IMG/VR virus record: IMGVR_UViG_2880412407_000011
Source of the DNA: a virus
Taxonomy: Duplodnaviria > Heunggongvirae > Uroviricota > Caudoviricetes
DNA: 64,000 bases
Strand: one strand, 5' to 3'
Position numbers: made by a program. Positions 6,301 to 9,300 of the stretch are shown here, in pieces; the stretch's first letter is position 1; each line of letters begins with the position of its first letter.

Positions 6301-9300
6301 GGTCAATGCCCCCCAATGCTAAGCAATGCACTCTGATACCTGTTTCGGTCAGTTGCTCCACTGTTTTCCTGATATCCATTGCATTACAACCAAGGCGATC
6401 CAGTTTTGTCACAATCAATTGATCACCACATTTCAGGCGAGCAAGCAACCGGTTAAAACCAGGACGCTCACTGGTTGCTGCTGAGCCGCTAATGTGTTCT
6501 TCGATTATTTGCTGAGGTTTGATTTTAAAACCTGCACTTTCGATTTCCCGGCGTTGATTTTCGGTGGTCTGATCCAGCGTTGATATCCGACAGTAAGCAA
6601 AAATTCGAGACATAGTGAGACTCTATACGAAATTGGTGTTCATATCATAATGCATCTCAGAAAATAATCATGATTATTTTTGTGCATATTTGTATGTACA
6701 CATTCGAAAATAAACGAATGCGTATGCAACCCCGTAATTTTGGTGAGACCCAAAATCGATTTTGTGAAAAATGGCTTTAACTCGGTTTGTTTTTCGAGTT
6801 CCGGGCGGACTCAAGGAAGAAGAATAGTGTTGCGTGTTATTTTAACCAGATTTCAAGTTGTTTGGTCGTGGAAAAGTGGAGCAAAATGTTGTTAAAGTGG
6901 GAAAATGATAAAAAAGTAAGTTTATTATATTACATTTTACCATTTAAATTTTGGTTGTCTTTAAGAACTGATATCGCTGTTTGTAATAATTCTTTGTTAT
7001 CCAGCCATGATTTTTTCTTTATGTTTCCTTCAATGTAATCAAGCAATGTTCTGGTATTGATAGGTCTTCCCTGTTTTGCTACTTCCACTACAGCATCCCC
7101 TAGGATAATTCTTACTTCAGGAAGCTGCGCAGGGAACCACTTTAGGGTGTCTTTTGATTTCATGAAGATATTCCTTAAAATATTATTGATTTTCATTGCG
7201 ATATTGTATGTCTGATTCAGGATATGTTGACTTATACATCGGTTTTGTCTGGGTTATTGGATATGCCAATCCCTAATTTTATTAGGGCATGACTAAAAAT
7301 GCTGAATATGATAAGGAGAGATGTGATTATCAGTATGCTGTTCATATAGCCTCGAATTAGTAATGTGTTATATATGATATAGTTGACAATTTTTATCTTG
7401 GGTGTTCTTAAAGTTCGTAGATAAACATTGTCGTTTCAGGTATACAGGAATGCTAACAGGTGGCAGCAAAAATCAGGCGGTTTATGGCGCAAGCTGAAGC
7501 GGCAACTGCAAACTATCTTATGCAGAGACTCTACACGGATTGGGTTTAAAAGTATACATAGATAACAGTTTTTATCTGAAAAAGAAAAATATCAAGGTGA
7601 TATAGCCTATATGCCTTTGATGCGGAGGAATGAATGTGATGGGAGTGATGTATCTGAATAGTTGAAAAACCGCAGACACGCCTTATGCAAGAACGTGCTG
7701 CGGTTGGCTGGTAAATTTTTCGATAGTGCGAGTATTGAATGATTTCCAGCCGTTATTGATTTTACGCGTAACTCCATGAAAAAACTACTTATCTGTTGGG
7801 GAGTTTTTTTTGGGGCATATATGGGACAGAAATAGGCCCCAGATAGACACTGAGATCGAACTTAGGATGCTTTTTAAAAAATGCAACTATCTGAAAAAAC
7901 CTAGAAAACGCCAAGGAAACCACAGGATGGGAAAAAACACCTGTGAATTATGGATTTCAAGAGTCATTCAATCTAACTAATTGATAAATAAAAAATTAAC
8001 TTTTCATCGCTTCGTTATGGGGCATGGTTGGGGCAAACTCGCTTAACTGTGTATTTAACAGCGTTACCTGCGCATTATTATTTTCTGACATCCATTTCCC
8101 GTACACCTGAAACACCATTTGCGCATCTGCATGGCCCATCTGGTTTGCAATGAATGCCGGGTTAGCTCCTGCTGTTAACGACCAGCAGGCATAAGTGTGT
8201 CTCGACTGATACGATTTGCGATGGCGGATTCCGGCACGCTTTACCGCTGCGTCCCACATCTGCCTTATTGAGTCAACGGTAAAATGGTCGCCATAATTTT
8301 TTACTTTCGCTGACACTTCAGGTTGAAAAACAAAGGTACATTTTTGTTTCTCTGTTCTGCCGAATTCTCTGAGGTGAACATCGATGATATGCTCTTTGCT
8401 CAGTCTCGTTAGTGCCATCTGACTCCGGAGAGCGTCGATTGCGGGCTTAATAAGGTGAATCACACGATTGGTTCCCGCCTGTGTTTTTGGTACTGTAAAA
8501 CGGTCTTTTGCCAGATTTCTTCTGATTATCATTGTTCCATTTTTCAGATCTATATCTTCCCATCCAAGCGCACAGAGTTCACCAGGGCGAATCCCAGTAT
8601 AAACGGAAACACACCATAAATTTTTGGCTTGCTGATTTCTGCACGCGTCAATAAGGCGGATAAACTCCTCCCGCGAAAGTGGATCCGGGATGGTTCTCGA
8701 CTCCTTTAATGGTGAGATCCCCTTAAATGGATTGTCTGCCAGATAACCGTTATCAACACCAAACTGGAACACGGCGTAAAGATTTGTCATGTAATTATTT
8801 ACGGTAACAGCCGATCTCCCGGGTTGTGTAACAATATAGTTACTTTTGGGGATCTGGTATCCAGTCAGTAACTCTTTACGTACCGCCAGCAATTTTTCTT
8901 TATTAATCGATGATGCAAGATTTTTTTCACCGATTATGCTCAGAATATTTTTGATGACGGCACGGTACGTGTTGAGTGACGTTTTTGCGACTTCAGTTTC
9001 TTTCAGTGCCAGAAATTTTTCAGCCAGTTCTTTTATGGTTAAATCTTGTCGGGCCTCACCAAATTTTTCCAGATTGTGTGAGGCGGGAAACTGTTTTGCA
9101 TAGTCGAAAGCGCCAGTTTTTATTGCGTAACAAACAGAGGCGCGTAGCTCACCTGCAATGCGCCTGTTTTTTGCTGTGTCAGGAACCCCAAGATTTTCCC
9201 GGACTCTTACACCTTTATAAACAAACCAGATACGTAATTTCCCTCCATGGTTTTCCACGCCTGTCGGATATTTCATTTCAGCTTCTCTCATTGGTTCGTG

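What the first reader, a model, noticed from the sequence alone, without database searches (positions are those of the whole stretch)
7684..7771. About 88-bp imperfect direct repeats bracketing the second prophage plus cargo (partner at 61003..61090)
A roughly 88-bp segment about 230 bp from the 3' end of int recurs at about 90 percent identity, with a 33-bp perfectly identical core, immediately 3' of the DinI-like gene. The two copies bracket the lambda-like prophage and its effector cargo, as attL/attR would. However, similarity extends on both sides of the identical core, which is more typical of diverged homologous sequence from related phage backbones. Each copy contains a cggctgg...ccagccg inverted repeat.
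Basis: seen in the sequence. Interest (0 to 1): 0.45.

Follow-up and report, generated by a model that had tools for sequence, protein, structure and literature searches.

The report
Conserved prophage-end block, not att sites
The two ~90-bp repeats are real, but they are copies of a conserved piece of lambda-like phage backbone (the tail end of a phage dinI gene unit) sitting in two different prophages, not the sites where the bracketed prophage was inserted.

Summary
The repeat is real: 7684-7771 vs 61003-61090 is 88.8% identical, with a 38-bp exact run. Full extent is 7670-7789 vs 60990-61107. It is not an attL/attR pair.

A four-way alignment (intact ydfJ, K-12 Qin, O121 reference, window) puts the integrase's real crossover at an 18-bp core, 7944-7961. 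That is 180 bp right of the left copy, and the core occurs once in the window. The left copy belongs to the right end of the neighbouring Qin/mEp460-like prophage.

The right copy lies 1.6 kb inside a different prophage integrated at dusA. In all eight complete O121:H19 genomes the two halves of the window are 2.1-2.4 Mb apart. The window is a recombinant (or misassembly) across a 16-kb identical head/tail module.

The ~96-bp block occurs in phage lambda (3.5 kb from attP), HK97, mEp460, phiP27, Stx phages and about 80% of E. coli genomes, next to at least five integrase types. It abuts DinI-family genes across genera. It contains a covarying hairpin followed by a U-tract on the dinI strand.

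It overlaps the published 96-bp "attB-in-PP_2", but this prophage lacks the marks of phages reported to use that site. The finding is ordinary and largely already described.

The parts
7670..7766 (.). Left copy of the conserved ~96-bp block. P1 hairpin 7670-7703; P2 7706-7711 with 7746-7751; P3 7719-7725 with 7733-7739; tail to GATTTTACG. It belongs to the right end of the Qin/mEp460-like prophage 1.
   Evidence: Alignments A3/A5/A6. Collinear with K-12 Qin and free phage mEp460. Covariation counted.
7767..7795 (-). About 29-bp relic of the 3' end of a deleted dinI-like gene.
   Evidence: Similarity of left and right copies continues about 25-30 bp into the dinI 3' end of the right copy. The same relic is in K-12 Qin, mEp460 and PPompW.
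7812..7943 (.). Phage-side (P) arm of the ydfJ-type attachment site.
   Evidence: Shared by K-12 Qin attR, O121 reference prophage-2 attR and the window middle junction. The start motif GGGGCATATATGGGACA is unique in the window.
7944..7961 (.). True att core of the ydfJ-type integrase (TGAATTATGGATTTCAAG). Here it is the central part of an attP-like P-O-P' hybrid between tandem prophages.
   Evidence: Four-way alignment attB (NC101) / attR (K-12) / attR (O121 reference) / window. Unique in the window. Continuous with mEp460 attP. Agrees with the published 18-19-bp att of ydfJ prophages (PMC8112680).
7996..9291 (-). ydfJ-type tyrosine integrase of prophage 2 (431 aa), followed by excisionase at 9311-9574.
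   Evidence: RefSeq annotation of the identical sequence. 96% identical to mEp460 integrase.
33700..50000 (+). Head/tail module identical in the ydfJ prophage and the dusA prophage. The window switches from one locus to the other somewhere inside it.
   Evidence: Mismatch profile: the ydfJ locus fits 1-33.6 kb, the dusA locus fits about 51-64 kb at 100%, and both fit equally in between.
60990..61085 (-). Right copy of the block: 3' flank of the DinI-like gene of the dusA-integrated prophage. P1 60990-61022; P2 61025-61030 with 61064-61069; P3 61037-61043 with 61051-61057.
   Evidence: PGAP labels it a 'capsid protein' fragment.
61091..61339 (-). DinI-like gene (82 aa).
   Evidence: Pfam PF06183, E 1.2e-19. 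RefSeq WP_001217539.1.
61353..61404 (-). Two LexA-box palindromes (61353-61372, 61381-61400) overlapping a promoter-like site (-35 at 61404, -10 ending 61375) for the DinI-like gene.
   Evidence: These are the only matches to TACTGT-N8-ACAGT in 64 kb; 4 strand-hits versus 0.57 expected. Promoter scan.
61401..62498 (-). dusA-type tyrosine integrase (365 aa), divergent from dusA.
   Evidence: RefSeq annotation.
62587..62692 (+). 5' end of dusA carrying the att duplication of the dusA prophage. Similarity to the displaced dusA 5' fragment at the prophage's far end stops near 62690.
   Evidence: Alignment A7. Displaced 'tRNA-dihydrouridine synthase' fragment annotated at the far end.

Best explanation
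The two copies are paralogous copies of a discrete ~96-bp conserved module of lambda-like phage genomes. The module lies at the inner edge of the variable cargo region, close to but not part of the attachment site.

The left copy belongs to the right end of a Qin/mEp460-like prophage (prophage 1), whose dinI gene has been deleted down to about 29 bp. Prophage 2 is integrated in tandem at the ydfJ-type 18-bp core 180 bp further right (7944-7961), which produced an attP-like hybrid site. The right copy is the 3' flank of the DinI-like gene of a different prophage end, the one integrated in dusA. That prophage's own att lies 1.6 kb further right, inside dusA.

The two ends are in one window only because the ydfJ prophage and the dusA prophage share an identical ~16-kb head/tail module. 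The sequence crosses from one locus to the other within that module, either through a 2.4-Mb inversion by homologous recombination or through an assembly error.

Inferred function of the block: it is the 3' untranslated end of an SOS-inducible (LexA-box) leftward dinI transcription unit. It consists of a highly conserved structured domain (P2/P3) followed by a covarying hairpin (P1) and a U-tract that acts as an intrinsic terminator. It persists as a relic where dinI has been lost.

Shown: the repeat, the real att cores, the locus mapping, the wide distribution, the dinI linkage and the covariation. Inferred: termination and any RNA function.
For: Real att:
- K-12 Qin-ydfJ' and the window are near-identical through the block, P arm and core, then diverge exactly after TGAATTATGGATTTC.
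- The O121 reference prophage-2 right end joins at the P arm and continues into ydfJ'.
- Intact ydfJ in NC101 has GAATTTATGGACTTCCAG and no block.
- Core and P-arm motif are each unique in the window.
- Free phage mEp460 has block, P arm, core and int as one continuous stretch, about 99% identical to window 7566-7965.
- The published att of ydfJ prophages is 18-19 bp, and tandem clusters at ydfJ are common (PMC8112680).

Different prophages:
- Annotation of the reference loci.
- Mismatch mapping.
- In 8/8 complete O121:H19 genomes the two parts are 2.1-2.4 Mb apart.
- No complete genome has the join; best matches are 99.3-99.8%, all at dusA.
- dusA duplication ends near 62690.

Backbone module:
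- Lambda 24159-24256, 3.5 kb from the attP core at 27724-27738.
- HK97 20953-21041, abutting sib.
- 214 phage records and 4300 of 5426 E. coli genomes, up to 8 places each.
- Integrases of lambda, ydfJ, ECP1 and dusA types, plus Rac, beside it.
- Sharp boundaries in all contexts.

dinI linkage:
- DinI-family ORFs end 2-72 nt from the block in Escherichia, Citrobacter and Trabulsiella.
- LexA boxes and a promoter lie upstream of dinI.
- Gifsy dinI homologues head LexA-controlled operons (PMC3121763).

Structure:
- P1 has 7 of 11 pairs with changes on both sides.
- Covariation score is 0.133 versus 0.082 for shuffles (0/500 reach it) and at most 0.082 for slid registers.
- Non-Watson-Crick cells in P1 favour the minus strand (A.C 20 versus G.U 11).
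- 19 of 28 copies have at least 5 U in the 8 nt after P1 on the minus strand.
- Folding z-scores run from -1.6 to -4.4 on the minus strand.
Against: - The U-tract after P1 is weak in the window's right copy (AUCCUAUU), in lambda and in the Salmonella/Citrobacter copies.
- P2/P3 is conserved far beyond what a terminator needs. Its invariant G.U pair in P3 is a standard pair only on the plus strand, so the active strand is not settled.
- The block persists in lambda, HK97 and ECP1 without any dinI.
- The block overlaps a sequence published as an att site (attB-in-PP_2), so a recombination role in other contexts is not excluded.
- Whether the window's join is biological or an assembly artefact cannot be decided from sequence alone.
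Confidence: 0.85

Rival explanations
1. The two copies are attL and attR of prophage 2. On this view the prophage entered the resident ydfJ prophage through the 96-bp attB-in-PP_2 sequence, the prophage-in-prophage route of Nakamura et al. 2021.
For: The block overlaps the published 96-bp att sequence. It has 85-88% identity to the ykgJ-ecpE intergenic region. The 309-bp / 83.8% extended homology in the nleC-carrying ydfJ prophage matches the paper's figure. The PPompW geometry also matches. The paper reports lambda-like phages flanked by this sequence inside ydfJ prophages.
Against: The left junction is fully collinear with K-12 Qin (a single prophage) and with free phage mEp460, so no crossover in the block is needed. 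The adjacent integrase is ydfJ-type, with its own core 37 bp from its stop codon. The phages reported to use the 96-bp site carry the yecE-like 21-mer and an ompW-like 121-bp sequence downstream of int; both are absent from the window. The right copy belongs to the dusA prophage, 2.1-2.4 Mb away in 8/8 complete genomes.
Confidence: 0.04
2. The block is a cis-acting or small RNA that works on the plus strand, at the end of the late/cargo transcripts, rather than as the dinI 3' end.
For: P3 is a perfect 7-bp stem only on the plus strand, because of the invariant G.U pair. P2 has 6 G.U cells. Plus-strand folds are at least as stable as minus-strand folds, with z down to -4.25. Weak plus-strand Rfam CssrB hits overlap P1 in both copies.
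Against: There is no conserved promoter or conserved upstream gene on the plus strand, and the left flanks are unrelated in every context. No U-tract follows the structure on the plus strand. P1 wobble cells favour the minus strand. The conserved neighbour is dinI on the minus strand. The CssrB hits score 24-25 bits against a gathering score of 76.
Confidence: 0.1
3. The block has no function of its own. It is a hitch-hiking relic that serves only as a patch of homology where lambdoid phages recombine, a mosaic boundary.
For: Boundaries are sharp, with unrelated sequence on both sides. Rac keeps only P1 and PPompW keeps only P2/P3 plus the dinI relic, so breakpoints cluster at the P1/P2 junction. 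The block persists without dinI in lambda and HK97.
Against: P1 shows compensatory changes. A 30-nt stretch is almost invariant across Escherichia, Salmonella, Citrobacter and Trabulsiella, while the adjacent DinI proteins are visibly much more diverged. Both observations indicate purifying selection.
Confidence: 0.12

Closest known systems
attB-in-PP_2, the 96-bp att sequence at the end of lambda-like prophages (Nakamura et al. 2021, PLoS Pathog, PMC8112680)
   Same: It is the same sequence in part. The published 96 bp corresponds to about 61023-61120 and about 7704-7800, that is, the P2/P3 half of the block plus about 30 bp of the dinI 3' end. It has the same homology to the K-12 ykgJ-ecpE intergenic region, the same 309-bp / 84% extension in nleC-carrying ydfJ prophages, and the same position next to effector loci.
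   Different: Here it is not the junction of an integration event. The conserved unit extends 5' to include the P1 hairpin. It is also present in lambda, HK97, mEp460, K-12 Qin and non-E. coli genera. That suggests a phage backbone element rather than a sequence captured from the chromosome.
Tandem prophage clusters at ydfJ with an 18-19-bp att (PMC8112680, S7 Fig); K-12 cryptic prophage Qin
   Same: The core TGAATTATGGATTTC(C/A)AG lies at the 5' end of ydfJ. A Qin-like right end (pin, ydfK, ynfT) adjoins it. A hybrid site lies between the two prophages.
   Different: In this window the partner site next to ydfJ' is missing, because the sequence switches to the dusA locus.
[quoted passage not shown]
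   Same: A LexA-controlled dinI gene is followed by an unusually long conserved 3' region ending in a hairpin terminator.
   Different: No sequence homology was found; the Klebsiella representative genome did not match the block pattern. DinR is chromosomal and described as Klebsiella-specific. Processing, Hfq binding and targets are untested here. No better-than-shuffle pairing with the E. coli ftsZ start region was found.
Lambda sib/tI retroregulator downstream of int
   Same: It is a leftward hairpin located beyond attP relative to int. In mEp460-like phages the block occupies that position, and in HK97 it directly abuts the annotated sib site.
   Different: The sequence is different. HK97 has both elements, and in lambda the block is 3.3 kb further away. 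An RNase III role is untested.
dusA-specific integrase prophages (Farrugia et al. 2015; cited from my own knowledge, not read here)
   Same: The integrase is divergent from dusA, and the dusA 5' end is duplicated at the far end of the element.
   Different: This concerns the right-hand prophage's real att, not the repeat in the finding.

Membership tests
attL/attR pair of one integrase-mediated (Campbell-type) prophage insertion | The repeated sequence is the point where phage and flanking sequence are joined at both ends. | tested here: not met
   The junction maps to 7944-7961, 180 bp right of the left copy. The right copy is 1.6 kb inside the dusA prophage boundary.
attL/attR pair of one integrase-mediated (Campbell-type) prophage insertion | An empty site in other genomes carries one copy joined to the outer flanks. 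| tested here: not met
   Intact ydfJ in NC101 has the 18-bp core but no copy of the block in 5.3 kb.
attL/attR pair of one integrase-mediated (Campbell-type) prophage insertion | The sequence is specific to one integrase family. | tested here: not met
   The block lies beside lambda-type, ydfJ-type, ECP1-type and dusA-type integrases, and beside Rac. In lambda it is 3.5 kb from attP.
attL/attR pair of one integrase-mediated (Campbell-type) prophage insertion | Both copies belong to one contiguous element in related genomes. | tested here: not met
   They are 2.1-2.4 Mb apart in 8/8 complete O121:H19 genomes. No complete genome has the join.
attB-in-PP_2 (PMC8112680) | About 81-88% identity to the K-12 ykgJ-ecpE intergenic region, extending to 309 bp / 84% in nleC-carrying ydfJ prophages. 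| tested here: met
   85.4% over 157 bp (right copy), 88% over 83 bp (left copy), and 309 bp at 83.8% for L002 31317-31623.
attB-in-PP_2 (PMC8112680) | Position in PPompW upstream of the 121-bp ompW att, spaced by 185 + 100 + 228 bp. | tested here: met
   PPompW_EH1846 match at 1501-1598; annotated duplication at 2111-2231; gap of 512 bp.
attB-in-PP_2 (PMC8112680) | It flanks an inserted lambda-like phage that carries attB-in-PP_1 (GTCATGCAGTTAAAGTGGCGG) and the ompW-like attB-in-PP_3 downstream of its integrase. | tested here: not met
   The 21-mer is absent with up to 3 mismatches. No ompW-like sequence is present in the window.
attB-in-PP_2 (PMC8112680) | Integrase-mediated strand exchange occurs within this sequence. 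| not testable with these tools
   This needs excision or integration assays. As far as I could read, the paper inferred it from flanking repeats.
Tandem prophages at ydfJ | A hybrid P-O-P' site between the prophages, collinear with the attP of a free phage. | tested here: met
   Window 7566-7965 is about 99% identical to the continuous mEp460 sequence.
Rho-independent terminator (P1, minus strand) | A G+C-rich hairpin immediately followed by a U-tract, downstream of a gene on the same strand. | tested here: inconclusive
   The hairpin is present and covaries. The U-tract criterion is met in 19/28 copies, including the left copy, but is weak in the right copy. The hairpin lies downstream of dinI on the same strand. 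The simple scan did not call it.
Rho-independent terminator (P1, minus strand) | It terminates transcription. | not testable with these tools
   This needs Term-seq or in vitro transcription.
Any Rfam family | A match at the family's gathering score. | tested here: not met
   Only CssrB at 24-25 bits against a gathering score of 76. The only gathering-score hit in the four Shigella loci was IS009, about 2 kb from the block in L032 and 0.5 kb in L023.
DinR-type 3'UTR-derived sRNA | A stable, Hfq-bound fragment processed from the dinI mRNA 3' end. | not testable with these tools
   Only the genomic layout (LexA boxes, dinI, long conserved 3' region) is shown.

The most novel reading that the evidence does not exclude
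The block may be an undescribed, widely conserved structured RNA: the 3' end of SOS-inducible phage dinI transcripts, present even in phage lambda and K-12. Like Klebsiella DinR, it might be released as a regulatory RNA. A second reading is also open: the published 96-bp 'attB-in-PP_2' may not be an integrase target at all. It may be this backbone block, so that some reported prophage-in-prophage insertions would really be tandem arrays or homology-driven joins.
Probability: 0.25. Interest if true: 0.5.

Novelty: already known. Interest (0 to 1): 0.25.

Why it matters
For annotation, direct repeats that bracket a lambdoid prophage are not enough to call attL/attR. Related prophages carry the same conserved block near their right ends, so tandem or recombined prophages will always show such repeats.

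The real att sites here are an 18-bp core in ydfJ and a site in the 5' end of dusA. The window also illustrates how identical structural modules in two prophages can join distant loci, either by inversion or by assembly error. This matters for STEC genome comparisons and outbreak typing.

A smaller point concerns the block itself. It is under selection across genera and lies downstream of LexA-controlled dinI genes, yet it has no Rfam family or K-12 annotation. It could be worth a look in existing Term-seq or Hfq-CLIP data.

Tried and rejected
1. Coding relic. PGAP labels the block a 'capsid protein' fragment, and lambda differs from the O121 copies mostly at third positions of that frame. I rejected this. 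With 28 sequences, the central 30 nt are invariant at all codon positions. Qin-type copies have a 1-nt indel. The frame has no start codon and has stops just upstream.
2. Rfam. Nothing reached a gathering score. The weak CssrB hits were not pursued further.
3. Known prophage sRNAs. HnrS (66 nt, own promoter, late genes, EHEC/EPEC-restricted) and svsR (3' end of cI) are different elements.
4. Literature search for the block's sequence in either strand, as DNA or RNA: no paper.
5. The curated MG1655 record has no feature on the Qin copy or the Rac remnant.
6. ftsZ targeting, as for DinR and DicF. Duplex energies with the E. coli ftsZ start region are no better than shuffles, with z from -0.5 to +2.1. 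The method is crude.
7. Simple terminator scan. It did not call P1 because its loop limit is 8 nt.
8. Search for a complete genome with the window's join: none found.
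Full report
**Observation.** The repeat is real. Window 7684-7771 and 61003-61090 align with 79 identical positions in 89 columns (88.8%) and one single-base indel. The longest exact run is 38 bp rather than 33. Similarity extends over 7670-7789 and 60990-61107. blastn gives E 3.6e-26. The left copy ends 225 bp from the stop codon of a minus-strand integrase gene (7996-9291). The right copy abuts the stop codon of an 82-aa DinI-family gene at 61091-61339 (Pfam PF06183).

**Where the window comes from.** The sequence is Escherichia coli O121:H19, 100% identical to eight complete genomes over the two regions tested. 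In all eight genomes, however, the left part and the right end lie 2.1-2.4 Mb apart.
- The left part maps to the ydfJ locus. There, a Qin-like prophage (ending J, lom, stf, tfa, pin, ydfK, ynfT) is followed in tandem by a second lambdoid prophage (int, xis... J, lom, stf, nleC, DinI-like, then truncated ydfJ).
- The right end maps to a prophage integrated at dusA (..., J, lom, stf, EspS, nleG7, IS600, 'capsid protein' fragment, DinI-like, integrase, dusA, pspG).
- Mismatch profiles show the window follows the ydfJ locus up to about 33.6 kb. It fits both loci equally from 33.7 to 50 kb, where the head/tail genes are identical. It follows the dusA locus at 100% from about 51 kb onward.
- No complete genome reproduces this join. 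The best matches are 99.3-99.8% and all lie at the dusA locus.
- The two prophages are inverted relative to each other in the reference, so a single homologous exchange would give exactly this arrangement.
- Such inversions involving ydfJ prophages have been reported (PMC8112680). An assembly error would look the same.

**The real attachment sites.** I aligned three junctions: K-12 Qin-ydfJ', the window's middle junction, and the reference prophage-2 right junction.
- K-12 and the window are nearly identical from ynfT through the repeat and on to ...TGAATTATGGATTTC. They then diverge, K-12 into ydfJ' and the window into the 3' end of int.
- The reference right junction joins the alignment about 130 bp before that point (GGGGCATATATGGGACA...) and continues into ydfJ'.
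- Adding an intact ydfJ from strain NC101 gives the standard four-way pattern: attB (GAATTTATGGACTTCCAG), two attR sites, and one P-O-P' hybrid.
- The core (7944-7958) and the P-arm motif (7812) each occur once in the window. The block is absent from the empty site.
- Free phage mEp460 carries pin, a ydfK-like gene, the block, the P arm, the core and int as one continuous sequence. It is about 99% identical to window 7566-7965, and its integrase is 96% identical.
- The middle junction is therefore the attP-like hybrid expected between tandem lysogens. The left copy of the finding belongs to prophage 1, not to the prophage it was thought to bracket.
- This agrees with the experimentally defined 18-19-bp att of ydfJ prophages (PMC8112680).
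- For the right-hand prophage, about 110 bp of the dusA 5' region is duplicated at the far end of the element. Similarity stops near window 62690, 1.6 kb beyond the right copy.

**What the repeated block is.** It is a discrete element of about 96 bp (7670-7766 and 60990-61085) with sharp boundaries in every context examined.
- In phage lambda it lies at 24159-24256, between ea47 and ea31, 3.5 kb from the attP core.
- In HK97 it directly abuts the annotated sib site.
- It also occurs in mEp460, phiP27, ECP1, many Stx phages and a Salmonella prophage.
- It is found in 4300 of 5426 complete E. coli genomes, in up to eight places each.
- A pattern scan of one genome per species found it in Escherichia, Shigella, Citrobacter, Salmonella arizonae and Trabulsiella.
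- It lies next to at least five integrase/att specificities. This rules it out as an integrase-specific arm.
- Its distance to the att core ranges from about 180 bp to 3.5 kb.

**Linkage to dinI.** Its conserved neighbour is dinI.
- DinI-family ORFs on the minus strand end 2-72 nt from the block in E. coli, Citrobacter and Trabulsiella. Those DinI proteins are much more diverged than the block itself.
- Qin, mEp460 and PPompW keep a relic of about 29 bp of the dinI 3' end.
- The K-12 ykgJ-ecpE intergenic region holds a full block plus a frameshifted dinI relic.
- In the window, the DinI-like gene is preceded by the only two LexA-box matches in 64 kb (61353-61372 and 61381-61400), overlapping a promoter-like site. 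Phage dinI homologues in Gifsy prophages are shown to head LexA-controlled operons (PMC3121763).
- The right copy is therefore transcribed leftward as the 3' end of an SOS-inducible unit.

**Structure.** I built an alignment of 28 distinct copies (A6).
- The 5' hairpin P1 has 7 of 11 pairs with changes on both sides; for example, one pair is A-U 14, G-C 6, C-G 4.
- The covariation score is 0.133, against 0.082 for shuffles (0 of 500 reach it) and at most 0.082 for slid registers.
- On the minus strand, P1 is followed by at least 5 U in 8 nt in 19 of 28 copies. Its non-Watson-Crick cells favour that strand (A.C 20 versus G.U 11).
- P2 shows little covariation and P3 none. Their sequence (TTCGATAGTGCGAGTATTGAATGATTTCCAG) is almost invariant at every position. 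That argues against the coding relic suggested by PGAP's 'capsid protein' label.
- Rac keeps only P1, followed by its own arm repeats and the Rac core. PPompW keeps only P2/P3 plus the dinI relic. The block is therefore modular, with breakpoints at the P1/P2 junction.
- My best reading, marked as inference, is a dinI 3' untranslated region with a leftward intrinsic terminator. The P2/P3 domain has unknown function; it may be an RNA processed from the 3' end, by analogy with Klebsiella DinR (PMC10907235).
- Weak points: the U-tract is poor in the right copy, in lambda and in the Salmonella/Citrobacter copies. The invariant G.U pair in P3 pairs only on the plus strand. The block survives without dinI in lambda and HK97.

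**Relation to the published attB-in-PP_2.** Nakamura et al. (PMC8112680) describe a 96-bp att sequence at the end of lambda-like prophages, next to effector loci. It is about 81% identical to the ykgJ-ecpE intergenic region, and other lambda-like phages are integrated into it.
- The block is homologous to that region (85-88%).
- The nleC-carrying ydfJ prophage gives exactly 309 bp at 83.8%, the paper's figure.
- In PPompW_EH1846 the match ends 512 bp before the annotated 121-bp ompW duplication. That fits the paper's 185 + 100 + 228 bp spacing to within a base.
- The published 96 bp therefore corresponds to the P2/P3 half of the block plus about 30 bp of the dinI end. It overlaps the finding's repeat by about 65 bp.
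- I tested whether prophage 2 could have entered by this route. The phages reported to do so carry a yecE-like 21-mer and an ompW-like sequence downstream of int, and neither is in the window. The integrase is ydfJ-type with its own core. The left junction needs no crossover in the block. I give this rival about 4%.
- Conversely, the block's presence in lambda, HK97 and other genera suggests it is phage backbone that left a relic at ykgJ-ecpE, rather than a chromosomal sequence captured by phages. This is an inference I could not test further.

**Other checks.**
- Rfam gives nothing at a gathering score.
- The curated MG1655 record has no feature on the block.
- No paper in the library contains its sequence.
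- HnrS and svsR are different elements.
- Pairing with the ftsZ start region is no better than for shuffled sequences.

**Verdict.** What is present is ordinary and largely described: tandem prophages at ydfJ, a dusA prophage, inter-prophage recombination, and a conserved dinI-associated block that overlaps a published sequence. The residual interest is that the block behaves like a selected, structured element with no assigned function.

Noticed in passing
window 33700-50000 (whole-window structure): The window joins the ydfJ prophage cluster to the dusA prophage across an identical ~16-kb head/tail module. In 8/8 complete O121:H19 genomes these loci are 2.1-2.4 Mb apart, and no complete genome has the join. 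It is either a 2.4-Mb inversion or a misassembly.
   Followed up: partly
window 9560-10876, 55965-57281; 4600-5863, 10871-12101, 59444-60708: There are two copies of a 1317-bp IS3-family element (99.9% identical, inverted) and three 100%-identical IS600-like copies. The IS3 copy at 9560-10876, beside the excisionase gene (9311-9574), is absent from reference strain 16-9255 at this locus.
   Followed up: partly
L043 (NC_000913.3 ~304190-304490, ykgJ-ecpE intergenic region): The K-12 core chromosome carries a full copy of the block followed by a frameshifted dinI-like pseudogene, which looks like a prophage-end relic. The published view is that phages acquired this sequence from the chromosome. 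The block's presence in lambda, HK97, Salmonella and Citrobacter suggests the opposite direction.
   Followed up: partly
L042 (K-12 Rac, NC_000913.3 ~1434700-1434960); L045 1440-1650 (PPompW): Rac keeps only the P1 hairpin of the block, then its own GGGGCAAAA arm repeats and the core TTGTTCAGGTTGTATTGTTCTTTCTT. PPompW keeps only P2/P3 plus the dinI relic. Mosaic breakpoints coincide at the P1/P2 junction.
   Followed up: partly
window 61008-61094 and L002 31490-31555: PGAP annotates the non-coding block as a 'capsid protein' pseudogene fragment. This is probably a spurious protein-alignment call.
   Followed up: yes
window 27071-27146 and 27247-27323: Two tRNA genes lie in prophage 2 upstream of the lysis region. 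ARAGORN calls the first one Met (CAT) and RefSeq calls it Ile, as expected for a lysidine-modified tRNA-Ile2. The second is Arg (UCU).
   Followed up: no
window 7565-7702 and 60948-61021 (+): Weak Rfam hits to CssrB (Shigella sRNA B), 24-25 bits against a gathering score of 76. In both copies the hit ends at the 3' side of the P1 hairpin, which may reflect partial homology of that family's seed to a prophage end.
   Followed up: no
L013, L019, L020, L022, L028, L029 (genome-contig hits): The block turns up in contigs labelled Bacillota, Caldithrix, Proteobacteria MAG, Alkalicoccobacillus, Chryseobacterium and Lysobacter. Some are under 500 bp, and L019 is identical to K-12 Qin over the 110-bp stretch compared. 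This is probably E. coli or lambda contamination in those assemblies.
   Followed up: no
window 7800-7830 vs L045 ~1640-1650: The start of the ydfJ-type P arm (TTTTGGGGCATATATGGGACAGAAAT) resembles the sequence that follows the 96-bp block in PPompW (TTTTGGAACGTGTATAGGGCAGAAAT). Conservation may therefore continue beyond the dinI relic in some phages that have a different integrase.
   Followed up: no
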